Virus record (IMG/VR): IMGVR_UViG_2657244986_000002
Source of the DNA: a virus
Lineage: Duplodnaviria > Heunggongvirae > Uroviricota > Caudoviricetes
Length of the DNA: 18,337 nt
Reading direction: 5' to 3' (one strand)
Part shown: in pieces, positions 1 to 13,870 of the stretch
Position numbering within the stretch: position 1 is the stretch's first letter
How the letters are laid out: each line of letters starts with the position of its first letter
The notes under the pieces: generated by a model
Told to the model about the DNA's origin: nothing
Databases searched by the model: none
The model's input: the letters and a program-made list of their open reading frames with translations, nothing else
Translations under genes and position numbers: made by a program

Positions 1-16
1 ATATCAGGTGGATAAT

Positions 17-730
17 ATGCCATACATATGTTCTATCATTTTGGTGTTGAACTCGTTTGGTGTCCGAATTGGTAAAGAAGATATTTTGTTTAAAAAAGGA
101 AATGCTGTCCTCATTGAATACAATTTAAAAGATCTTTTTTCGTCAAATACAGATCATCTAATGATCGTAGATGTTGAGGAGAAAACAGTTAATGATTTCT
201 TTAAAAACTACACACTCTCACCTTTTTCTGTAAGAAGGTTTTATCCGTCATACTTGATAGTAGAATGTGAAGATTTTTCATTGTTAAAGAACTTGGTTGC
301 ATGCTTGAATTGTGATAGCAAAACCGTGGATGTAGTTAGAAATCAAATATCACTTGCATGTCTTGCTGTCTTATCTTCAGAGAAAATAGTGCAAAGTTTT
401 TTGTTCGGAAGTCTTAATAGCTTAGGTTGTAAAGTTAAGGCTATTATTCACTCGGATATCTCAGCGTCATGGAGACTTTGTGATATATCTTCAAGATTAT
501 ATATGAGCGAGAGTTTGTTAAAAAGAAAATTAAAAGACGAAGGATTATCGTTTAGTAAATTAATTCTTGAAGAACGAATGATGATGGCGCAAAGATTATT
601 GATCTACAGTAACCATACTGTCGGCAAGGTGGCGGGAATATGCGGGTATGACAATGCATCATATTTTGTAAGTGTTTTTAGAAGATATTTTGGTGTGCCT
701 CCGCACCAATATTTATCAAGATTTTCTTAG
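17..730 (+). CDS. AraC/XylS-family transcriptional regulator (AppY/YdeO/GadX-like), phage cargo gene
   Basis: C-terminal AraC-type HTH signature in the translation (...GICGYDNASYFVSVFRRYFGVPPHQYLSRFS); N-terminus and C-terminal half resemble my recollection of AppY-type regulators. Gene is visibly AT-rich compared with the structural genes. ATG at 17 is preceded by GGTGGA; an in-frame GTG at 8 is an alternative start. Terminator-like hairpin follows. Confidence 0.8.
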   Translation: MPYICSIILVLNSFGVRIGKEDILFKKGNAVLIEYNLKDLFSSNTDHLMIVDVEEKTVNDFFKNYTLSPFSVRRFYPSYLIVECEDFSLLKNLVACLNCDSKTVDVVRNQISLACLAVLSSEKIVQSFLFGSLNSLGCKVKAIIHSDISASWRLCDISSRLYMSESLLKRKLKDEGLSFSKLILEERMMMAQRLLIYSNHTVGKVAGICGYDNASYFVSVFRRYFGVPPHQYLSRFS

Positions 731-1140: not shown

Positions 1141-1761
1141 ATGACTCAAAACTATGAACTGGTTGTGAAAGGAGCCCGCAATTACGAGGATAAAGTTGCG
1201 GTAACTGTAGCATTACAGGACAAAGAACGCTTTGACGGTGAAATTTTTGACATGGTCATCACCATGGACTGTGTTGAAGGTGCCGCGCTGGAGTTTTATG
1301 AGGCAGCAGCCAGAATGAGCGCCAGGCAGGTCTTCCTGGGAGTGTCAGAAAAATTGTCAGAAAAAGTTGAGTCTTATCTGCAGCATCAGTACTCCATTAA
1401 GATTGAAAATCCTGCCAATAAACACGATCGTCCTCATCTTGCGGGTTATGGTAGTGCAGTTAAAACCAGCACCGGGCGCGCAGAGCAGGAAAAAAACGCC
1501 GTGGATGACATAAGTCGTGCGGTGGTTACTGTGGAGTTTCCGGGGCACGTGGCGTCAAGAGTGAAAGTTGGGAATGGTGGTGCTCCTGTGCTGACGAAAA
1601 TAATCGGCAGCAAGGTCAGTGTCTGGCTTGATGATGAAGAAGTGTTGTCGCTTATGTACAAAGAAGATTACGACCCGGTAATAACAACTTTCAGTGATCA
1701 CGAAGCAAGGGCAAGAGAGTACGCTTTATCGGTATTTGCAGCGATGCGAGCCGGGAATTAG
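1141..1761 (+). CDS. Hypothetical phage protein between holin and endolysin (possibly YdfR/DUF1327-related)
   Basis: 206-aa ORF starting 4 nt after the holin stop, same strand, no TM segment evident. The N-terminal ~100 aa resembles what I recall of small proteins found between holin and lysozyme genes in cryptic E. coli prophages; the family assignment is tentative. Confidence 0.6.
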   Translation: MTQNYELVVKGARNYEDKVAVTVALQDKERFDGEIFDMVITMDCVEGAALEFYEAAARMSARQVFLGVSEKLSEKVESYLQHQYSIKIENPANKHDRPHLAGYGSAVKTSTGRAEQEKNAVDDISRAVVTVEFPGHVASRVKVGNGGAPVLTKIIGSKVSVWLDDEEVLSLMYKEDYDPVITTFSDHEARAREYALSVFAAMRAGN

Positions 1762-2866: not shown

Positions 2867-2916
2867 CTGGTATGATGATGTTGAGAAGGCGGCACAGCAG
2901 GAGCTGTAATCGACGA

Positions 2917-2931
2917 GTGCTAATCTAGCAC
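2917..2931. promoter_or_regulatory. Perfect palindrome GTGCTA-atc-TAGCAC just upstream of the predicted cargo promoter (possible operator)
   Basis: 6-bp perfect inverted repeat with 3-nt spacer, 8 bp upstream of the predicted -35; no following T-run, so not terminator-like. Confidence 0.3.
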
Positions 2932-2938
2932 AATTGAG

Positions 2939-2966
2939 TTCACAAATTGTCTACTTTTGCTATATT
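2939..2966 (+). promoter_or_regulatory. Sigma70-type promoter candidate for the two-gene cargo operon
   Basis: -35 TTCACA (2939-2944), 16-nt spacer, extended -10 TGcTATATT (TG at 2958-2959, hexamer 2961-2966); AT-rich context after the Rz stop. Confidence 0.45.
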
Positions 2967-2974
2967 GCAACCGA

Positions 2975-3034
2975 TGCCAACAGCCTTTTTTGAGCAAAAA
3001 TCATAAATGTTATCGTGTTGGCAGTTTTTTTCTT
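2975..3034 (+). promoter_or_regulatory. Structured leader: 8-bp inverted repeat TGCCAACA/TGTTGGCA enclosing an inner T5-GAGC-A5 hairpin, followed by a T-run (attenuator or upstream terminator)
   Basis: Arms at 2975-2982 and 3016-3023 are exact reverse complements; 33-nt loop contains TTTTTGAGCAAAAA; followed by GTTTTTTTCTTT ending about 20 nt before the gene A start. Confidence 0.35.
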
Positions 3035-3054
3035 TGACGACACGGAATGATTTT

Positions 3055-3477
3055 ATGTCAGAAGTAGCTGTTGAACTTGAAGAGGATTCTTGGCCTGATT
3101 TTTTCCCGGTTGGAGTACCGCCGAAATCAGCCGTCCCTGCTGAGGGCGAGTTTTTCCGTTTGGTAAGGTCTAATCCACCAACCCCTGCATGTTTCCTCTC
3201 TACACATGAAGAGTATCCGCAGCGGCACAAAAAGTATCGTGGGGAAGCACTTCAGTGTGTCTATGGAACATCATTCTTTTCAGAATCGCGCGGGGCTACG
3301 GATGCAAAAGCTAAATTTCCTGCAGCTCTTGGTCATCGACTCGTTGCTAGTGGTCAGATCACCCCCGTTTTCGGAGTAATGAAAAAAACATTTGCCGATC
3401 CAGCGCACTACACAATTTGGCTTAAGCGTAATTGTGCTATTCATGAACATTTTCACTGTATAGGAGAAGGCGTATGA
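3055..3477 (+). CDS. Hypothetical protein, gene A of two-gene cargo operon (unknown function)
   Basis: 140-aa ORF from the internal ATG of the 3007..3477 ORF (MSEVAVELEEDSW...); stop overlaps the start of the next gene (ATGA), implying translational coupling. No recognisable domain. C-terminus has C-x7-C with HEHFH between. Confidence 0.6.
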   Translation: MSEVAVELEEDSWPDFFPVGVPPKSAVPAEGEFFRLVRSNPPTPACFLSTHEEYPQRHKKYRGEALQCVYGTSFFSESRGATDAKAKFPAALGHRLVASGQITPVFGVMKKTFADPAHYTIWLKRNCAIHEHFHCIGEGV

Positions 3478-4766
3478 GTAACGTTTTTCTACCTAATACA
3501 ATGATGGGCACTCTATGTTACAAAAGAGTTTATGAGTTCTTCGAAGAGCCTCGCTTCTTTTCAGTTGAAAATGAAGTTAGTACACTTTTTATCGTTTACT
3601 GGATTGGTGAGGATGATGAATGTGATAGTTGGTTTATCATACCAATTTCTCCAGGGCGATTAGAGTTGATTGAAAGAAAAAGAATATGTATCCGTGATGC
3701 TTTGATTAATCAGGAGCAAAACTTTTTCTATGAAGCCCATATACCATACGATCGTACAGGCAAAGTGACTTGGCTGAGTAAAAACTTGGTTGATATATTT
3801 GAAATACCTTTGCCTGTTTCTGAACTATATATAAGTTCGGTAGTTCCAGTAATGCCAAATGGTAAACTGGGCGAGGCTATTACTTACTCAACTCATGAGA
3901 TCCATTTAGAAAAAAGCTCAAAGAAAAGTGCAAAAAATTTGGTTTTAAGTCATGTGTCAAACGTATGCGACAGATTCAGCGATCTTTATGACAGAATGCT
4001 GGAGATGGCAAAGTGCAAAGATAAATTACGTCCTGTCGATGCGCGGCCTGGTTCCTTTATCATTTCTTTTAAAGCTGAGAAATTACATTCCTTTGAAGAC
4101 ACTTTTAAAGAATTAAGCAGGCTGATAGAACTTAGAGCTGATATTATTCCTTTTGTTTTCGAAAAGGGTATTGATGTTCCAGCTTTGACAGATCTCTTAC
4201 AATCCATAGTTGAAACCGGAACGAATATGGAACTCAAAAGCAACCAGACAGGTGAATTAGCTTTTGTTATTACAAAAGCTGGTGCTGAGTTCTATTTAAA
4301 AAAATTATCACGTCTTTCTACCTCATTGGTTGGAGGGCATCAAATACCTCAAGCAGATGTCCTCGAGACAGTTTATAAATTAGTGGAAATTGTTTGGAGT
4401 GGCGAACCACTTACTCCTATTAATACTGGTTTGCAAGATAGACATATCTACTATTATAAGCATGCAGCTAAAGTTTTGGGATTACTTGATAGCTTTGGTA
4501 ATGTCACAACGTCTGGTCAACAACTCGTACAAAGTGATGAGATGACTAGACATAAAATTGCAGCGAGAAAATTTGAAGTGAGTCATGTGGGATGGGCTTG
4601 GATAAATTGGGCCAGTGTTGAACATTTATCCCAAATTGATCCTGACAGCGCTTTAGACTTTCTATTGGAGCAATGCCACTCTTTAAGTCGTGATACTATT
4701 GAACGACGTGCTACAACTATTAAACACTGGTGCCGTGAATTGAAAAATTATTATACACCTCTGTAA
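3474..4766 (+). CDS. Hypothetical protein, gene B of two-gene cargo operon (unknown function; candidate defense or accessory protein)
   Basis: 430-aa ORF with strong RBS AGGAGAAGG about 5 nt upstream; markedly AT-rich; no Walker A, TM segment or known catalytic motif visible by eye; followed by a clean terminator. Confidence 0.75.
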   Translation: MSNVFLPNTMMGTLCYKRVYEFFEEPRFFSVENEVSTLFIVYWIGEDDECDSWFIIPISPGRLELIERKRICIRDALINQEQNFFYEAHIPYDRTGKVTWLSKNLVDIFEIPLPVSELYISSVVPVMPNGKLGEAITYSTHEIHLEKSSKKSAKNLVLSHVSNVCDRFSDLYDRMLEMAKCKDKLRPVDARPGSFIISFKAEKLHSFEDTFKELSRLIELRADIIPFVFEKGIDVPALTDLLQSIVETGTNMELKSNQTGELAFVITKAGAEFYLKKLSRLSTSLVGGHQIPQADVLETVYKLVEIVWSGEPLTPINTGLQDRHIYYYKHAAKVLGLLDSFGNVTTSGQQLVQSDEMTRHKIAARKFEVSHVGWAWINWASVEHLSQIDPDSALDFLLEQCHSLSRDTIERRATTIKHWCRELKNYYTPL

Positions 4767-4793
4767 AGGATAATTTTCGTAGTTAACAATGAA

Positions 4794-4819
4794 CCACTGA
4801 CGTCTGTCGGTGGTTTTTT
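4794..4819 (+). terminator. Rho-independent terminator ending the cargo operon
   Basis: CCACTGAC-gtct-GTCGGTGG: 8-bp stem with one G-U pair and 4-nt loop, followed by TTTTTT; 27 nt after the gene B stop. Confidence 0.7.
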
Positions 4820-4884
4820 AATAGATAATTTCCCACTTATCCACTTGATTTTTGATGGGTCCTCCAAGTGGGGGGCCTGCCACG

Positions 4885-4960: not shown

Positions 4961-5080
4961 ATTAAAAGTTATTTCTCTTTTCAGCTGTACAATATTTTTT
5001 TCTCCCTGTCATTAGACTAGTTTGCAATTAATTGAAATATATAAATAAACCTGATTTTCACCTGCCAGATGGAGTTGCTT

Positions 5081-5608
5081 ATGTCAAATGTGAGCGGGAT
5101 CGGTGATGCTTATTACTGGAGTGTTTTTAAAATCGCCGAGGCCTTTGGGCTTCACCGGGACACAGTAAAAAAACGGCTCCTCGCGGCCAACACTCCTGTG
5201 GCTGCGACTGTCAGGGGGAACCCCGTTTACGCCCTGCAGCATGTCGGGCCTGCCCTGTTTAGTGTGAAGCATGAGGCAGCAGACTCTGTTCATGATCCAT
5301 CCCGTATGGAGCCGAAAGAGAGAAAGGACTGGTACCAGTCGGAAAATGAAAGGATCAAGTTGGAAAAGGAGCAGCGAAAACTCATCCCCGTTGATGAAGT
5401 AGTCATCGTCTATTCGTCCATGAGAAAGGCTGTCGTCCAGGTTCTGGAGACAATTCCGGATGTTCTTGAACGCGATTGCGCCCTGACTCCTCAGGCCGTT
5501 GGCGTTGTACAGCAGGCCATTGATGACCTGCGATACACTCTTCAGGAAAAATCCTACGAGGCTTGTGCTGCTGAATTAATTCCTGATGAGGAAGGAGAGA
5601 GTCTCTAG
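5081..5608 (+). CDS. Terminase small subunit (lambda Nu1-like)
   Basis: Position directly upstream of the gpA-like large terminase and downstream of the cos-like sequence; N-terminal HTH-like region (YYWSVFKIAEAFGLHRDTVKKRL) and acidic C-terminus, as in Nu1. GGAG precedes the ATG at 5081; the ORF-track start 5069 is an alternative. Confidence 0.75.
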   Translation: MSNVSGIGDAYYWSVFKIAEAFGLHRDTVKKRLLAANTPVAATVRGNPVYALQHVGPALFSVKHEAADSVHDPSRMEPKERKDWYQSENERIKLEKEQRKLIPVDEVVIVYSSMRKAVVQVLETIPDVLERDCALTPQAVGVVQQAIDDLRYTLQEKSYEACAAELIPDEEGESL

Positions 5609-5616
5609 GAGGAATA

Positions 5617-7716
5617 ATGGGTTTTTCATCAGCCCGAAATTTGGGAAGGGACATATCGGCAGGATTTTCCCCACCACGTCGCATGCCGATTTCGGAGGCT
5701 GTTAAAAAATTCATGCGTGTTCCCAAGGGGGCTGGTAACTCGGTGCCATGGGATCCTGAACTGACACCCTACATCATTGAGCCCATGAACTGCCTGGCAT
5801 CGCGTGAATACGATGCGGTGATTTTTGTTGGTCCTGCGCGAACAGGGAAGACCATTGGTCTGATCGATGGATGGATTGTCTATACCATCGTTTGCGATCC
5901 TTCGGACATGCTCGTTGTGCAGATGACCGAAGATAAGGCCCGCGAGCATTCAAAAAAGCGCCTCGACAGAACGTTCAGAAGCAGTGCGGCGGTAAAGAAA
6001 AGAATGAGTCCACGTCGTAATGACAATAATGTCCATGATAAGACGTTCAGGGATGGCTCGTTCCTTAAAATTGGTTGGCCCTCGGTCAACATTATGTCGT
6101 CGTCGGATTACCGGTTTGTCGCCTTAACCGATTACGACCGTTTTCCGGAGAATATCGACAGCGAGGGTGATGGTTTCTCCCTGGCCTCAAAACGTACCAC
6201 CACATTTATGTCCGCCGGGATGACTCTGGTGGAGAGCTCGCCGGGACGTGACATCTGCGACAGCAAATGGCGACGTAAGTCGCCTCATGAAGCGCCACCG
6301 ACGACTGGTATTCTTTCCCTTTACAATCGTGGTGACCGCCGCCGCTGGTACTGGCCATGTCCGCACTGCGGTGAATATTTTCAGCCAGCCATGGATGCCA
6401 TGACCGGCTACCGTAATGAACCGGATCCCTTTAAAGCCAGTGAGGCGGCGTATCTACTTTGCCCGCACTGCAGCGGCATTATCACTGCGGAGAAAAAGCG
6501 TGAGCTCAATAGTGCAGGAGTCTGGTTGCGTGAAGGTCAGGTCATTGATTGTAACGGCAACGTTTCCGGTGAACCGCGCCGCTCCCGTATCGCCAGTTTC
6601 TGGATGGAAGGGCCAGCTGCTGCGTATCAGACCTGGGCGCAACTGGTTTACAAATTACTGACTGCAGAACAGGAGTATGAAGCGACAGGAAGTGAAGAAA
6701 CACTCAGGGCGGTTATCAACACCGACTGGGGATTACCTTATCTTCCCCGCGCCAGCATGGAGCAACGAAAAAGTGAACTGCTTGAGCAGCGGGCAGAGCC
6801 AGTTCCTTCCCGCAGTGTGCCAGATGGCGTTAATTTTCTTGTGGCGACAGTGGATGTGCAGGCGGGACGTCATCGCCGTTTTGTGGTTCAGGTAACGGGC
6901 TATGGCAGCCGTGGCGAACGCTGGATTATTGATCGTTACAACATCACGCAGTCATTGCGCGGTGACAGCGACGGGGAGAGCCAGCGAATTGATCCGGCCA
7001 GCTATCCGGAAGACTGGGATGTCCTGCTGACGGATGTTTTTCATAAAAGCTGGCCGCTGGCCTCCGATCCTTCTCAACAAATGCGACTGATGGCAATGGC
7101 GGTGGACTCCGGCGGTGAAGACGGGGTCACTGATAATGCCTATAAATTCTGGCGTCGTTGCCGTCGTGATGGCCTTGGTAAACGTATTTACCTGTTTAAG
7201 GGCGACAGCATCCGGCGCGCAAAACTGATCACCCGTACATTCCCTGATAACACCGGACGAACGGGCCGACGGGCGCAGGCCGCAGGTGATGTGCCGCTCT
7301 GGCTTCTTCAGACGGATGCACTGAAAGACCGGGTGAATAACGCGTTATGGCGTGACTCGCCAGGTCCCGGCTATGTGCATTTCCCTGACTGGCTGGGGAG
7401 CTGGTTTTACGACGAACTGACGTATGAAGAGCGGAGCAGTGACGGGAAATGGAGTAAGCCGGGTCGCGGTGCCAACGAAGCTTTTGACCTGATGGTGTAT
7501 GCCGAGGCTCTGGTCATTCTGCATGGATACGAAAAGATCCGCTGGCCGGATGCACCGGAGTGGGCGAGCCGGGAAACCTGGCTGGAGTGTGTCCCGGACA
7601 GTACCGAACCGTCATCCTCACCGGAACCGGTATCCACGCCTGTTAAAAAACAAAAACGGAAGAAAACAGTAACTGACGATGTTAACCCCTGGCTGACTTC
7701 CGGAGGATGGTTATGA
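5617..7716 (+). CDS. Terminase large subunit (lambda gpA family)
   Basis: 699 aa; contains a WPCPHCGEYFQ motif matching lambda gpA (ACPHCGEE) and a Walker-A-like GPARTGKT; strong RBS AGGAGG; stop overlaps the next gene. Confidence 0.9.
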   Translation: MGFSSARNLGRDISAGFSPPRRMPISEAVKKFMRVPKGAGNSVPWDPELTPYIIEPMNCLASREYDAVIFVGPARTGKTIGLIDGWIVYTIVCDPSDMLVVQMTEDKAREHSKKRLDRTFRSSAAVKKRMSPRRNDNNVHDKTFRDGSFLKIGWPSVNIMSSSDYRFVALTDYDRFPENIDSEGDGFSLASKRTTTFMSAGMTLVESSPGRDICDSKWRRKSPHEAPPTTGILSLYNRGDRRRWYWPCPHCGEYFQPAMDAMTGYRNEPDPFKASEAAYLLCPHCSGIITAEKKRELNSAGVWLREGQVIDCNGNVSGEPRRSRIASFWMEGPAAAYQTWAQLVYKLLTAEQEYEATGSEETLRAVINTDWGLPYLPRASMEQRKSELLEQRAEPVPSRSVPDGVNFLVATVDVQAGRHRRFVVQVTGYGSRGERWIIDRYNITQSLRGDSDGESQRIDPASYPEDWDVLLTDVFHKSWPLASDPSQQMRLMAMAVDSGGEDGVTDNAYKFWRRCRRDGLGKRIYLFKGDSIRRAKLITRTFPDNTGRTGRRAQAAGDVPLWLLQTDALKDRVNNALWRDSPGPGYVHFPDWLGSWFYDELTYEERSSDGKWSKPGRGANEAFDLMVYAEALVILHGYEKIRWPDAPEWASRETWLECVPDSTEPSSSPEPVSTPVKKQKRKKTVTDDVNPWLTSGGWL

Positions 7717-9400: not shown

Positions 9401-11405
9401 CCGCAGTACACCGACGACCAGTCCGAAGAATAATTCCTGGTTCAGGATGCAGGCTGGTCACCAGAGTGACGCGGATATTTATATTTATGACGAGATTGGT
9501 TTCTGGGGTGTTACAGCGAAGCAGTTTATCAGTGATCTGAATGCACTGGGCGATATCACCCACATTAATCTCCATATCAATTCACCGGGTGGCGATGTCT
9601 TTGAAGGCATCGCCATTTTTAATGCGCTGAAAACACATGGTGCGTCCATTACCGTTTATGTCGACGGTGTGGCGGCATCAATGGCGTCGGTCATTGCGAT
9701 GGTGGGAAACCCGGTCATTATGCCGGAAAACACCTTCATGATGATTCATAAACCATTTGGCTTTACGGGCGGTGATGCGGAGGACATGCGCACCTATGCC
9801 GACCTGCTCGATAAAGTTGAGGCGGTTCTGTTACCCGCTTATGCACAGAAAACCGGGAAAACCACCGATGAAATTGCTGCCATGCTGGCGGATGAGACCT
9901 GGATGTCCGGTGCCGAATGTCTGGCACATGGATTTGCTGATCAGGTAACGCCAGCCGTTAAGGCAATGGCATGTATTCAGTCAAAACGTACAGAGGAATT
10001 TAAAAAGATGCCGGAATCCATTCGAAACATGATTACTCCGCCACGCAACAGTGCTCCACGCGTACAGGATAATGAACCTGAAGCCTCCCGGACGCCAGTG
10101 CAGGCAGCAGCACCCGTGGTGGATGAAAACAGCATCCGTGCGCAGGTACTGGCAGAGCAAAAAGCGCGTGTAAACGGTATTAATGATCTGTTTGCCATGT
10201 TTGGCGGGCGTTATCAGACGCTGCAGGCTCAGTGTCTTGCCGATCCTGAATGTTCGCTGGAGCAGGCCCGCGAAAAGCTGTTGAACGAGATGGGGCGCGA
10301 GTCCACGCCATCCAATAAAAATACCCCGGCTCATATTTATGCCGGTAACGGTAATTTTGTGGGGGACGGGATCCGCCAGGCGCTGATGGCGCGTGCCGGA
10401 TTTGAAAAAACCGAACGTGATAATGTCTACAACGGGATGACCCTGCGTGAATATGCCCGTATGTCACTGACTGAACGGGGTATTGGGGTTTCCAGTTATA
10501 ACCCGATGCAGATGGTCGGTGCGGCGTTCACACACAGTACGTCTGACTTCGGTAATATTCTGCTGGATGTTGCGAACAAAGCCATTCTGCAGGGCTGGGA
10601 AGATGCCCCTGAAACCTATGAACAGTGGACGCGGACAGGTCAGTTGTCTGATTTTAAAATTGCCCATCGTGTGGGTATGGGGGGCTTCAGTGCTCTGCGT
10701 CAGGTGCGTGAAGGGGCGGAATATAAATACGTCACCACCGGAGATAAACAGGCCACTATTGCACTGGCGACCTATGGCGAGCTGTTCAGTATCACCCGTC
10801 AGGCCATTATCAATGATGATCTGAATATGCTGACCGATGTCCCGATGAAGTTGGGCCGTGCGGCGAAATCCACTATTGCCGATCTGGTTTATGCCATTCT
10901 GACGTCTAACCCGAAAATCTCCACAGATAATGTAAGTCTGTTCGATAAAGCGAAACATGCAAACGTACTGGAGAGCGCTGCAATGGACGTGGCATCGCTG
11001 GATAAAGCCCGCCAGTTGATGCGCGTTCAGAAAGAGGGGGAGCGTCATCTGAATATTCGTCCTGCGTTCGTACTGGTACCGACGGCGATGGAGTCTGTTG
11101 CTAACCAGGTCATTCGCTCCTCAAGTGTCAAGGGGGCTGACATTAACGCCGGTATTATTAACCCGGTGAAAGATTTTGCGACCGTTATTGCAGAGCCTCG
11201 TCTTGATGATAACAGCCAGACCACCTTCTACCTGGCTGCGTCAAAAGGCTCCGATACGATTGAAGTGGCTTATCTCAACGGTGTGGATACGCCATATATT
11301 GATCAGATGGAGGGCTTCAGTGTGGATGGCGTGACAACGAAAGTGCGTATTGACGCCGGTGTCGCGCCAGTTGATCACCGCGGTCTGGTGAAATGTACGG
11401 CGTAA
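9378..11405 (+). CDS. Prohead protease (ClpP/S14-like) fused to major capsid protein
   Basis: N-terminal region has ClpP-type protease signatures (DIYIYDEIGFWG, HINSPGGDVFEGIAIFNALK, ASMASVIAMVG, MIHKP); a long helical linker and a C-terminal capsid-like domain follow. GTG start at 9378 has RBS AAGGAGG; ATG 9447 is an alternative. The ORF-track start 9186 lies inside the portal gene. Confidence 0.85.
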   Translation: MPQRNDSSRSTPTTSPKNNSWFRMQAGHQSDADIYIYDEIGFWGVTAKQFISDLNALGDITHINLHINSPGGDVFEGIAIFNALKTHGASITVYVDGVAASMASVIAMVGNPVIMPENTFMMIHKPFGFTGGDAEDMRTYADLLDKVEAVLLPAYAQKTGKTTDEIAAMLADETWMSGAECLAHGFADQVTPAVKAMACIQSKRTEEFKKMPESIRNMITPPRNSAPRVQDNEPEASRTPVQAAAPVVDENSIRAQVLAEQKARVNGINDLFAMFGGRYQTLQAQCLADPECSLEQAREKLLNEMGRESTPSNKNTPAHIYAGNGNFVGDGIRQALMARAGFEKTERDNVYNGMTLREYARMSLTERGIGVSSYNPMQMVGAAFTHSTSDFGNILLDVANKAILQGWEDAPETYEQWTRTGQLSDFKIAHRVGMGGFSALRQVREGAEYKYVTTGDKQATIALATYGELFSITRQAIINDDLNMLTDVPMKLGRAAKSTIADLVYAILTSNPKISTDNVSLFDKAKHANVLESAAMDVASLDKARQLMRVQKEGERHLNIRPAFVLVPTAMESVANQVIRSSSVKGADINAGIINPVKDFATVIAEPRLDDNSQTTFYLAASKGSDTIEVAYLNGVDTPYIDQMEGFSVDGVTTKVRIDAGVAPVDHRGLVKCTA

Positions 11406-13076: not shown

Positions 13077-13826
13077 GTGGCAATGACCACACCAAATCCA
13101 CTGGCAAAAACGAAAGGTGCGGGAACGACGTTCTGGATGTACACCGGCAAGGGCGATGCGTTTGCGAACCCTTTATCGGACACTGACTGGCTGCGTCTTG
13201 CGATGGTGAAGGATCTGCAACCTGGCGAAATGACCGCTGATGCAGAAGATGACACTTATCTCGATGATGAAGATGCAGACTGGAAAACGACAACCCAGGG
13301 GCAGAAATCCGTCGGTGATACTTCGGCGACGCTGGCCTGGCGTCCGGGTGACAGCGGGCAGAAAAAACTGGTTCAGTTGTTCGACTCCGGTGAAGTCTGC
13401 GCGTTTCGTATCAAATATCCCAACGGCACTGTTGATGTTTTCCGTGGCTGGCTGAGCTCACTGGGTAAAACCATTGCCTCAAAAGACGTGATGACCCGCA
13501 CAGTGAAAATCAGCGGTGTGGGGCGTCCGCATCTGGCAGAGGAAGGCACTGAAACAGTGAGCGTTACCGGGCTGACGGTGGCACCAGCATCTGCCAGTGT
13601 AAAAGTGGGAGCAACCACCACGCTGACCTTTACAGTAAAACCTGACGGAGCCAGTGACAAAGCGATCAGTGTACATTCGACAGATCCACAGACTGCCACG
13701 GTGACCCTGAACGGGCTTGTGGCCACGGTGAAAGGCGTGAAGCAGGGCAGTGTCAGCATTGTGGGCATGACTTCTGACGGCGATTTTGTGGCCGTGGCTG
13801 CGGTGGCTGTCAGCGCCGCAGGTTAA
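13077..13826 (+). CDS. Major tail protein V (lambda gpV-like) with C-terminal Ig-like domain
   Basis: 249 aa closely matching lambda V (KGAGTT.W.Y.G.GD..ANPLSD.DW.RLA.VKDL.PGE.TA...DD.YLDDEDADW, NGTVDVFRGW.SS.GK, RTVK...VGRP); Thr/Val-rich C-terminal region; RBS AAGGAGG. Confidence 0.9.
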   Translation: MAMTTPNPLAKTKGAGTTFWMYTGKGDAFANPLSDTDWLRLAMVKDLQPGEMTADAEDDTYLDDEDADWKTTTQGQKSVGDTSATLAWRPGDSGQKKLVQLFDSGEVCAFRIKYPNGTVDVFRGWLSSLGKTIASKDVMTRTVKISGVGRPHLAEEGTETVSVTGLTVAPASASVKVGATTTLTFTVKPDGASDKAISVHSTDPQTATVTLNGLVATVKGVKQGSVSIVGMTSDGDFVAVAAVAVSAAG

Positions 13827-13846: not shown

Positions 13847-13870
13847 GCCCCGGTTATCCGGGGCTTTTTT
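13847..13870 (+). terminator. Terminator-like hairpin after the major tail gene
   Basis: GCCCCGG-ttat-CCGGGGC (7-bp stem, 4-nt loop) followed by TTTTTT, about 20 nt after the V stop and before the G start. Confidence 0.55.

What the first reader, a model, noticed from the sequence alone, without database searches (positions are those of the whole stretch)
2975..3054. Structured leader with terminator-like hairpin between the cargo promoter and gene A
The predicted transcription start (about 2973) is followed immediately by an 8-bp perfect inverted repeat enclosing a second small hairpin and then a run of T residues that ends about 20 nt before the gene A start codon. If transcribed from the cargo promoter this would behave as an attenuator, keeping the operon mostly off unless termination is bypassed (possibly by phage Q-type antitermination during lytic growth, or by a trans-acting factor). 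Alternatively it is simply the terminator of transcripts arriving from the lysis genes.
Basis: seen in the sequence. Interest (0 to 1): 0.5.

Follow-up and report, generated by a model that had tools for sequence, protein, structure and literature searches.

The report
Conserved 5' leader hairpin of prophage defence operon
The hairpin-plus-T-run is real and belongs to the start of the messenger RNA of a two-gene toxin-antitoxin-like anti-phage cargo carried by lambda-like prophages, but what is conserved across relatives is the hairpin, not the T-run, so the idea that it stops most transcripts early is plausible here and unproven.

Summary
An 8-bp perfect inverted repeat (2975-2982 / 3016-3023, 33-nt loop) is followed by G+T7 (3025-3031), 23 nt before the gene A ATG (3055). 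It starts 2 nt after the start site predicted from a near-consensus extended -10 promoter (2939-2966).

The promoter, leader, genes A and B (PD-T4-10-like, B = DUF6575) and a canonical terminator (4794-4819) move together as one moron between unrelated lysis and terminase modules in Escherichia, Salmonella, Klebsiella, Kluyvera, Raoultella and Cronobacter prophages.

The helix (H1) is kept in all 15 leader lineages although the loop sequence diverges. It shows two compensatory pairs and many A-U to G-U changes, but the covariation statistics are modest.

The U-tract follows H1 in only 10 of the 15 lineages. No antiterminator fold can compete before the U-tract is made.

In this window the full leader refolds into a -30 kcal/mol structure (2978-3073) that buries the ribosome-binding site and the AUG.

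Best reading (about 0.4): a leaky, unregulated leader terminator plus occlusion of the ribosome-binding site, keeping a toxic operon low. Main rival: a 5'-terminal hairpin that stabilises the mRNA or tunes translation. "Terminator for lysis transcripts" is rejected.

This is a modestly interesting new leader motif of a known kind.

The parts
2939..2944 (+). -35 hexamer TTCACA of the cargo promoter; left edge of the mobile unit
   Evidence: Unchanged in all 13 lineages of the close clade, while the sequence upstream of it is unrelated between lineages.
2958..2966 (+). Extended -10 element TGCTATATT
   Evidence: TG before the second hexamer, 10 of 12 matches. TGCTATATT (TGTTATATT in L017 and L165) is conserved in every leader lineage.
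2973..2974 (+). Predicted transcription start (G/A, 7-8 nt after the -10); not mapped
   Evidence: Inference from the promoter geometry. GA(U)GCC is conserved at this position in all lineages.
2975..2982 (+). H1 5' arm UGCCAACA
   Evidence: I2; pair counts.
2983..3015 (+). H1 loop, 33 nt, A/U-rich. The sequence is largely unconserved (lengths 27-36 nt in relatives); the inner TTTTT/AAAAA mini-hairpin is not meaningful.
3016..3023 (+). H1 3' arm UGUUGGCA
   Evidence: I2.
3025..3031 (+). U7 tract 1 nt after H1 (terminator-like). Present in 10 of 15 leader lineages.
3014..3020 (+). 5' strand of the alternative helix H2 (CGUGUUG). It overlaps the H1 3' arm.
3038..3044 (+). 3' strand of H2 (CGACACG), abutting the Shine-Dalgarno
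   Evidence: core 5 bp nearly invariant, 1 compensatory pair, 1 G-U.
3035..3051 (+). Conserved box TGACKACACGGAATGAT, including the Shine-Dalgarno GGAA (3044-3047). Near-invariant in the close clade and absent from the distant lineages L163 and L165.
2978..3073 (+). Extended hairpin of the full-length leader, which pairs leader 2978-3004 with 3047-3073 and buries the Shine-Dalgarno and AUG. It is mutually exclusive with H1.
   Evidence: I1; -30.1 kcal/mol, z -3.07, 0 of 200 shuffles.
3055..3477 (+). Gene A, 140 aa, weak match to PD-T4-10_A (putative antitoxin)
3474..4766 (+). Gene B, 430 aa, DUF6575 (+DUF7226), weak match to PD-T4-10_B (putative toxin/effector). It overlaps gene A by ATGA.
4794..4819 (+). 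Canonical intrinsic terminator of the cargo operon (8-11 bp stem, 4-nt loop, U6); right edge of the mobile unit
   Evidence: -16 kcal/mol, z -5.5. Equivalent short-loop terminators follow gene B in the other lineages.

Best explanation
The repeat forms an RNA helix (H1) at the extreme 5' end of the mRNA of a self-contained prophage moron. The moron consists of a strong constitutive promoter, the leader, antitoxin-like gene A, toxin-like gene B and a terminator.

In this phage H1 is followed after 1 nt by U7. While RNA polymerase crosses the U-tract, H1 is the only stable fold of the nascent RNA. Most likely a fraction of transcripts therefore ends near 3029-3032: a leaky, constitutive leader terminator that lowers output from a near-consensus promoter.

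Transcripts that read through then refold. The H1 3' arm switches to H2 (3014-3020 with 3038-3044) and the leader pairs with the start of gene A (2978-3073). This occludes the Shine-Dalgarno and AUG, a second brake at the level of translation.

During the prophage's own lytic growth, Q-modified polymerase coming from the late promoter would ignore the site.

Shown: the sequence features, conservation of H1 with the cargo, and the predicted order of folding. Inferred: the transcription start, actual termination, the refolding in vivo, and the Q override.
For: - Anatomy.
- Motif rarer than chance in the window: P = 0.02.
- H1 is kept in all 15 leader lineages, with 91-95% of cells paired versus 12-55% in slid controls, 2 pairs with compensatory changes and 10 cells changed from A-U to G-U. 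RNAalifold selects it as the only consensus helix.
- H1 closes the MFE of the nascent RNA in 13 of 13 close and 2 of 2 distant lineages.
- A U-rich tract sits 1-2 nt after the stem in 10 of 15 lineages, including ones whose loops are no longer alignable.
- The three G-C pairs at the U-tract-proximal base of the stem are invariant or compensated.
- Sequential folding: P(H1) = 1.0 for transcript ends 3021-3041, then replaced by H2 and the extended fold by 3073. The extended fold is -30.1 kcal/mol, z -3.07.
- The cargo resembles PD-T4-10, whose B component is toxic and A neutralises it. This gives a reason for low basal expression.
- A Q antiterminator gene lies upstream of the same late region in a genome carrying the identical cargo.
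Against: - The 33-nt loop is far outside typical terminator loops. The hairpin is only -11.2 kcal/mol with z -1.5, compared with -16 kcal/mol and z -5.5 for the operon's own terminator, and the consensus terminator scan does not call it.
- The U-tract is absent in 5 lineages that keep H1: L016, L018, L024, L163/164 and L165.
- Covariation statistics are modest: covariation score reached by 17 of 500 shuffles in A2 and 69 of 500 in A4.
- The occluding fold over the ribosome-binding site is significantly stable only in the window lineage, L018 and L029.
- There are no transcript data of any kind.
Confidence: 0.4

Rival explanations
1. H1 is a 5'-terminal stem-loop whose selected role is post-transcriptional. 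It would protect the cargo mRNA from 5'-end-dependent decay (RppH/RNase E, as with the ompA 5' hairpin). It might also hold the H1 3' arm away from H2 so that the ribosome-binding site stays open. The U-tract would be just a single-stranded U-rich spacer (an S1, Hfq or standby site), and little termination would occur.
For: - H1 is conserved in all 15 lineages, while the U-tract is missing in 5 of them.
- The helix starts a constant 8-9 nt after the -10, which leaves about 2 unpaired nt at the predicted 5' end.
- H1 and the fold that occludes the ribosome-binding site are mutually exclusive.
- The loop size is atypical for a terminator.
- Own knowledge: 5'-terminal hairpins with no more than 2-4 unpaired 5' nt stabilise E. 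coli mRNAs.
Against: - In the 10 lineages with a U-tract, it stays U-rich and sits directly against the stem even though neighbouring loop sequence has diverged. The protection model does not require this.
- The start site is only predicted.
- There are no half-life data.
Confidence: 0.28
2. The unit promoter-H1-U7 is a gene in its own right. It would produce a 57-59-nt Hfq-type small RNA, comparable in size to the 51-60-nt prophage anti-sRNAs, and read-through into gene A would be secondary.
For: - A hairpin followed by poly(U) at the 3' end, with a predicted length of about 57-59 nt.
- Lambdoid prophages are known to encode unusually short Hfq-bound sRNAs at moron sites (PMC4104026).
Against: - The single-stranded loop, which would carry a seed, is the least conserved part.
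- The motif is never found without genes A and B downstream.
- The U-tract is absent in 5 lineages.
- No Rfam family matches.
- The position (Rz-cos) differs from that of the PR'-proximal anti-sRNAs.
Confidence: 0.07
3. The two arms are DNA half-sites, or one protein-binding RNA or DNA site, through which the A or A-B proteins autoregulate the operon as in type II toxin-antitoxin systems.
For: - The arms and the box 3035-3051 are conserved while the intervening sequence is not.
- The cargo is TA-like.
Against: - The arms lie downstream of the promoter and 33 bp apart.
- The one-sided changes are all A to G in the 5' arm. These keep G-U pairing in + strand RNA but would break DNA symmetry.
- Two paired positions changed on both sides in a complementary way.
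- Gene A has no recognisable DNA-binding domain.
Confidence: 0.06
4. It is the terminator of transcripts arriving from the lysis genes.
For: It lies about 110-165 nt downstream of the Rz-like gene (DUF2514, ends 2866) and has a T-run.
Against: - It lies downstream of the cargo promoter, inside the block that moves with genes A and B.
- The same leader follows four unrelated lysis cassettes (holin_2_1/lysozyme, holin_2_3/lysozyme, holin_3_3/GH108, holin_8/GH19) and one non-lysis context.
- From lambda biology, late transcripts must continue across cos into the head genes and are made by terminator-resistant Q-modified polymerase.
Confidence: 0.03
5. It is a chance inverted repeat in an AT-rich intergenic region with no function.
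For: Single-sequence folding is unremarkable (z -0.23 to -1.5).
Against: - P = 0.02 for the motif in shuffled windows.
- The helix is retained across lineages in which the adjacent gene B is down to about 50% identical, while the loop diverges.
- Compensatory changes are present.
Confidence: 0.05

Closest known systems
Intrinsic (Rho-independent) terminators used as constitutive leaky leader terminators
   Same: A stem with a G-C-rich base, a 1-nt spacer and a U7 tract. The hairpin is the only nascent fold when the U-tract is made.
   Different: The loop is 33 nt rather than 3-8 nt and the stability is modest. The U-tract is not conserved in a third of the family, and termination has not been demonstrated.
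Classical regulated attenuators (trp/his/pyrBI leaders, T-box, riboswitch expression platforms)
   Same: A terminator-like hairpin lies between the promoter and the first gene. There are mutually exclusive helices sharing one strand (H1 versus H2).
   Different: The competing helix H2 is transcribed after the U-tract, so it cannot act as an antiterminator. The 5' arm starts at about +3, so nothing lies upstream of it. There is no conserved leader peptide, aptamer or Rfam match.
5'-terminal stabilising stem-loops of E. coli mRNAs (ompA 5' UTR type; own knowledge)
   Same: The helix begins about 2 nt from the predicted 5' end, and this spacing is fixed in all lineages. A U-rich single strand and the ribosome-binding site follow.
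   Different: The 5' end is not mapped and no decay data exist. The very large loop and the adjoining U7 tract are not features of that class.
Phage morons (promoter-gene-terminator units; Juhala et al. 2000; PMC3594210)
   Same: The unit has its own promoter and terminator and sits between the lysis cassette and cos/terminase. It is shuffled among lambdoid prophages of several genera.
   Different: The textbook moron has no structured leader. Here a conserved leader is part of the unit.
PD-T4-10 toxin-antitoxin-like abortive-infection system (Vassallo et al. 2022, PMC9519451)
   Same: A two-gene overlapping operon. A and B match the PD-T4-10_A and PD-T4-10_B models, and B carries DUF6575.
   Different: The HMM matches are weak (E = 8e-6 and 3e-4), so this is a distant relative. 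Defence and toxicity were not tested here, and nothing is published about a leader.
Short prophage anti-sRNAs AgvB/AsxR (Tree et al. 2014, PMC4104026)
   Same: A lambdoid prophage moron region, a predicted product of about 57-59 nt, and a terminal hairpin with poly(U).
   Different: The position differs (Rz-cos rather than PR'-proximal) and the orientation is not convergent. Here the arms are conserved and the single-stranded loop varies. No sequence or Rfam similarity was found.

Membership tests
Intrinsic terminator | G-C-rich stem ending 0-2 nt before a U-tract of at least 5-6 U | tested here: met
   An 8-bp perfect stem with 4 G-C pairs (three consecutive at the base), then G, then U7.
Intrinsic terminator | Short hairpin loop (about 3-8 nt) and strongly stable hairpin | tested here: not met
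   The loop is 33 nt and the site is not called by the consensus scan. It folds to -11.2 kcal/mol with z -1.5, against -16 kcal/mol and z -5.5 for the gene B terminator.
Intrinsic terminator | Hairpin plus U-tract conserved together in homologous loci | tested here: inconclusive
   The helix is present in 15 of 15 lineages and the U-tract in 10 of 15.
Intrinsic terminator | RNA 3' ends at the U-tract | not testable with these tools
   Needs Term-seq, northern blots or in vitro transcription.
Regulated transcription attenuator | Alternative antiterminator fold able to form before the U-tract is transcribed | tested here: not met
   The 5' arm begins at about +3. P(H1) = 1.0 for transcript ends 3021-3041. 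The only conserved competitor (H2 3' strand, 3038-3044) lies downstream of the U-tract.
Regulated transcription attenuator | Sensor: leader peptide, ligand aptamer or repeated protein-binding motif | tested here: not met
   The in-frame ATG at 3007 is not conserved or in frame in relatives. There is no Rfam match at E up to 10 over the leader. The loop sequence is not conserved.
5'-terminal stabilising stem-loop | Helix within about 2-4 nt of the mRNA 5' end | tested here: inconclusive
   The feature is met if the start is at 2973/2974 as predicted from the promoter, and the spacing from the -10 to the arm is constant in all lineages. The start site is not mapped.
5'-terminal stabilising stem-loop | Helix lengthens mRNA half-life | not testable with these tools
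   Needs a rifampicin chase with H1 mutants and rppH/rne backgrounds.
Conserved cis-regulatory RNA structure (general) | Base pairs maintained by covariation above controls | tested here: inconclusive
   91-95% of cells are paired versus 12-55% in slid controls, with 2 compensatory pairs. The shuffle controls are only modestly exceeded (covariation score reached by 17 of 500 and 69 of 500 shuffles), because most columns are invariant.
Any Rfam family | Covariance-model match | tested here: not met
   No match in 2967-3057 even at E up to 10.
Phage moron | Own promoter and terminator; inserted between conserved phage modules; found in different backbones | tested here: met
   (similarity starts at the -35 hexamer and ends after the terminator).
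PD-T4-10 defence system | Two overlapping genes matching components A and B; B with DUF6575 | tested here: met
   PADLOC A E = 8.1e-6, B E = 2.8e-4; Pfam DUF6575 E = 1.8e-37; ATGA overlap at 3474-3477. The PADLOC matches are weak, so this is a distant member.
PD-T4-10 defence system | B toxic, A neutralising, protection against T-even phages | not testable with these tools
   Known only for the published system (PMC9519451).

The most novel reading that the evidence does not exclude
The leader is a two-state kinetic riboregulator specific to this defence operon. H1 forms first. It either ends the transcript, releasing a 57-59-nt hairpin RNA, or temporarily keeps the ribosome-binding site open. 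The mRNA then relaxes into the -30 kcal/mol closed fold. A change in transcription or translation kinetics or in RNA decay during phage infection, or a trans factor binding the conserved box 3035-3051, would shift the balance. This would alter the antitoxin-to-toxin supply and so link infection sensing to activation of the abortive-infection system. Alternatively the released leader RNA itself acts in trans.
Probability: 0.1. Interest if true: 0.7.

Novelty: new member of a known kind. Interest (0 to 1): 0.4.

Why it matters
How prophage-borne toxin-antitoxin-like defence systems are kept at a harmless basal level is mostly unknown. Here a specific, conserved leader travels with one such system (PD-T4-10-like) through several enterobacterial genera.

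If the leader terminates or occludes most transcripts, it is the dosage control of a toxic abortive-infection module. That would matter in three ways:
- It explains why the module can carry a near-consensus promoter.
- Constructs cloned 'with native promoter' include a regulatory RNA.
- It offers a small, mutable element (8 bp plus U7) for testing how expression level sets the defence and toxicity thresholds.

It is also a candidate new RNA motif absent from Rfam. The scope is narrow (one gene family, Enterobacteriaceae prophages) and the mechanism class is familiar.

Tried and rejected
- Single-sequence folding of 2970-3060 gave z -0.23, and the MFE ignored the repeat. It was uninformative because the 3' partner region up to 3073 was cut off (resolved).
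- The consensus terminator scan does not report the site because of its loop limit. It also missed the genuine gene B terminator.
- Rfam at E up to 10: nothing in the leader.
- blastn and tblastn of the leader, gene A and gene B against 50,697 phage records: no match. Only 8 of 5,426 complete E. coli genomes carry the cargo, all at least 99% identical, so they are useless for covariation.
- The first promoter pattern had the wrong spacer and gave 3 chance hits. The corrected pattern and the arm-plus-box pattern added no new lineage and no case of the leader in front of another gene. The extra hits were chance matches inside unrelated contigs.
- A covariance model of the leader found exactly one copy per locus and none in the distant homologues L006, L046 and L054-L056, whose leaders are unrelated and show no analogous hairpin plus U-run.
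- H2 as a covarying helix: mostly invariant columns, one compensatory pair and one G-U, so not decisive. H2 and its box are absent in L163 and L165.
- General selection for pairing between the H1 loop and the ribosome-binding site: significant in the window, L018 and L029 only, and the opposite sign in four lineages.
- Leader peptide from the ATG at 3007: not conserved.
- Inverted repeats around the -35 (I5, I6) as operators: not conserved outside the closest relative.

Full report
**Context**

The window is the late region of an E. coli lambdoid prophage, cdtI/Tritos-like from cos rightwards. Its layout (except where noted):

| Coordinates | Feature |
|---|---|
| 8-730 | AraC-type HTH gene |
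| 837-1136 | holin |
| 1141-1761 | DUF1327 ORF |
| 1815-2348 | lysozyme |
| 2327-2866 | DUF2514 (Rz-like) gene |
| 2867-4884 | insert of about 2 kb |
| about 4885 | cos, which is position 1 of phage cdtI |
| 5069-7716 | terminase |

The insert holds two overlapping genes. Gene A (3055-3477, 140 aa) has no Pfam hit. Gene B (3474-4766, 430 aa) has DUF6575, E = 1.8e-37. They weakly match the two components of the PD-T4-10 defence system (PADLOC E = 8e-6 and 3e-4). In the published system the second gene is toxic, the first neutralises it, and the pair gives abortive-infection protection against T-even phages (PMC9519451). The cargo is therefore a distant PD-T4-10-like toxin-antitoxin-type defence module.

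**The observation**

- The arms are TGCCAACA 2975-2982 and TGTTGGCA 3016-3023: 8 nt, perfectly complementary, 33 nt apart. G3024 and T7 (3025-3031) follow, and the gene A ATG is at 3055.
- A sigma-70 promoter with an extended -10 (TTCACA-16-TGcTATATT, 10 of 12 matches) ends at 2966. This predicts a start at about 2973, 2 nt before the stem.
- An 8-bp perfect stem with a loop of up to 40 nt and at least 6 T within 2 nt is expected 0.025 times per shuffled window, P = 0.02.
- The 'second small hairpin' in the loop is about 5 A-U pairs. It is not used in MFE folds and not conserved.
- As a single sequence the hairpin is unremarkable: -11.2 kcal/mol, z = -1.5. The operon's real terminator after gene B (4794-4819) is a textbook one: -16 kcal/mol, 4-nt loop, U6, z = -5.5.

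**Comparative evidence**

Gene A homologues (63-99% identity) and their loci were collected from genomes, IMG/VR and metagenomes. A gene-B-based scan added three more distant loci: L163 and L164 share one leader, L165 has another, and their gene B is about 50% identical to the window's.

The A-B pair nearly always sits between a lysis cassette and a terminase. Those flanking modules are unrelated between hosts (Escherichia, Salmonella, Klebsiella, Raoultella, Kluyvera, Cronobacter). They include four different holin/endolysin sets and three terminase types, and one locus has a non-lysis context.

Similarity between lineages begins at the -35 hexamer. It ends after a canonical short-loop terminator downstream of gene B. 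The promoter, leader, A, B and terminator are thus one mobile moron, and the leader is part of it. This rules out the reading that the hairpin is the terminator of the lysis transcripts.

**The helix H1**

- I count 15 distinct leader lineages. In all of them the two arms are retained while the loop (27-36 nt) is largely unalignable.
- On 16 distinct sequences, 95.3% of cells pair, against 14-55% when the partner is slid. Two pairs carry compensatory double changes: C-G to U-A in the Cronobacter locus L016, and A-U to G-C in L023. Ten cells changed A-U to G-U. The three G-C pairs next to the U-tract are invariant or compensated.
- RNAalifold picks H1 as the only consensus helix.
- H1 closes the MFE of the nascent RNA (predicted start to 3' arm) in all 13 close lineages (-8.6 to -15.1 kcal/mol) and in both distant ones.
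- The shuffle statistics are only moderate, because most columns never vary. The covariation score is reached by 17 of 500 shuffles, and by 69 of 500 with the distant lineages added.
- I therefore regard H1 as a real RNA helix with roughly 0.8 confidence, not as proven.
- The motif is exclusive to this operon. Pattern scans of IMG/VR and a covariance model found it only in front of gene A homologues, once per locus. More distant A homologues (44-52% identity) have unrelated leaders. Rfam has nothing.

**The U-tract**

- A U-rich run directly after the stem is present in 10 of 15 lineages, including lineages whose loops have diverged beyond alignment. This argues for selection on it within that clade.
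- It is replaced by mixed sequence in L016, L018 and L024. It is reduced to GUUU plus purines in L163/164 and L165.
- The family-wide conserved feature is therefore the 5'-terminal helix, not the terminator-like combination.

**Folding order in this window**

- For transcript ends 3021-3041, which is when polymerase is on and just past the U-tract, H1 has probability 1.0 and no competitor.
- From 3045 an alternative helix H2 (3014-3020 with 3038-3044) competes. H2 shares UGU with the H1 3' arm.
- By 3073 the whole leader zips into an extended hairpin (2978-3073, -30.1 kcal/mol, z = -3.07, 0 of 200 shuffles). It contains H2 and buries the Shine-Dalgarno (3044-3047) and the AUG.
- H2's core is nearly invariant, with one compensatory pair and one G-U. 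Together with the conserved box 3035-3051 it exists only in the close clade.
- Unusually strong occlusion of the ribosome-binding site by the loop is seen in the window lineage, L018 and L029, but not generally.

**Mechanism**

A classical regulated attenuator is not supported, for three reasons. The 5' arm starts at about +3, so no antiterminator can lie upstream. The only conserved competitor is transcribed after the U-tract. There is no conserved leader peptide or aptamer.

What the sequence supports is a constitutive, probably leaky terminator, followed in read-through transcripts by a closed ribosome-binding site. These would be two passive brakes on a toxic operon driven by a strong promoter. 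Q-modified late transcription (a Q gene lies upstream in a genome with the identical cargo) would pass through. That last point is an inference from lambda biology. I give this reading about 0.4.

The main rival (about 0.28) is that H1 acts post-transcriptionally, as a 5'-terminal protective or ribosome-binding-site-opening hairpin, and that the U-tract is incidental to termination. This fits the lineages without a U-tract and the atypical loop.

Minor rivals:
- a stand-alone sRNA of about 58 nt, compare the prophage anti-sRNAs (PMC4104026);
- a protein operator;
- a lysis-operon terminator;
- chance.

Only transcript mapping and mutational tests can decide between the first two.

**Verdict**

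This is a previously undescribed but mechanistically familiar leader motif tied to one prophage defence module, of moderate interest.

Noticed in passing
window 3007-3054: An in-frame ATG at 3007 extends gene A by 16 codons through the hairpin loop and the U-tract. One database protein (P0001, 156 aa) uses this start. It is out of frame or absent in relatives, so the 156-aa call is probably a mis-annotated start.
   Followed up: partly
window 8-730; L145 1542-4871: An AraC-type HTH gene sits immediately upstream of the holin. In E. coli LR-45 the same late region also carries blc-like and DUF523/DUF1722 genes between the Q antiterminator gene and the holin. Several other morons therefore share this late operon.
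   Followed up: no
L145 7196-10070 (E. coli LR-45, NZ_AP027532.1): An identical cargo with the same leader lies in a Qin-like cryptic prophage (essD, rrrQ, tfaQ, pinQ, ydfK). There the terminator region is followed directly by a truncated tail-fibre gene, so the whole head-tail module is deleted while the defence moron is kept.
   Followed up: partly
window 9590-9620 and 13847-13870 (+): The same stem-plus-T-run scan finds two more perfect-stem hairpins followed by T5/T6 inside the morphogenesis region. One lies just after the ORF ending at 13826. They are possible internal late-operon terminators or processing sites.
   Followed up: no
H1 loop, alignment A2 columns about 28-40 (window 2990-3003): Although the loop is otherwise unalignable, many lineages share an A-rich centre (CUAAC/CUAAAA/CAAAAAU). 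In the U-tract lineages it could in principle pair with the downstream U-run, a pseudoknot-like contact between the loop and the 3' tail.
   Followed up: no
L002 and L004 (genome contigs): Contigs labelled 'MAG: Bacillota bacterium' carry this enterobacterial prophage segment at 99% and 76% gene A identity. They are most likely mis-binned contigs.
   Followed up: no
L045 about 1427-1514: In one Salmonella-type viral contig the H1 3' arm is disrupted (GTTGGCTCAG instead of GTTGGCAG), and the gene A match is weaker than in its neighbours. This may be a decaying copy.
   Followed up: no
window 4802-4874 (-): A sub-threshold Rfam hit to Proteo-phage-1 RNA (18 bits against a gathering score of 42) lies between the cargo terminator and cos. 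It is probably noise.
   Followed up: no
window 1141-1761: The 206-aa ORF between holin and lysozyme matches DUF1327 only over its first 93 residues. The corresponding gene is annotated as a truncated pseudogene in LR-45.
   Followed up: no
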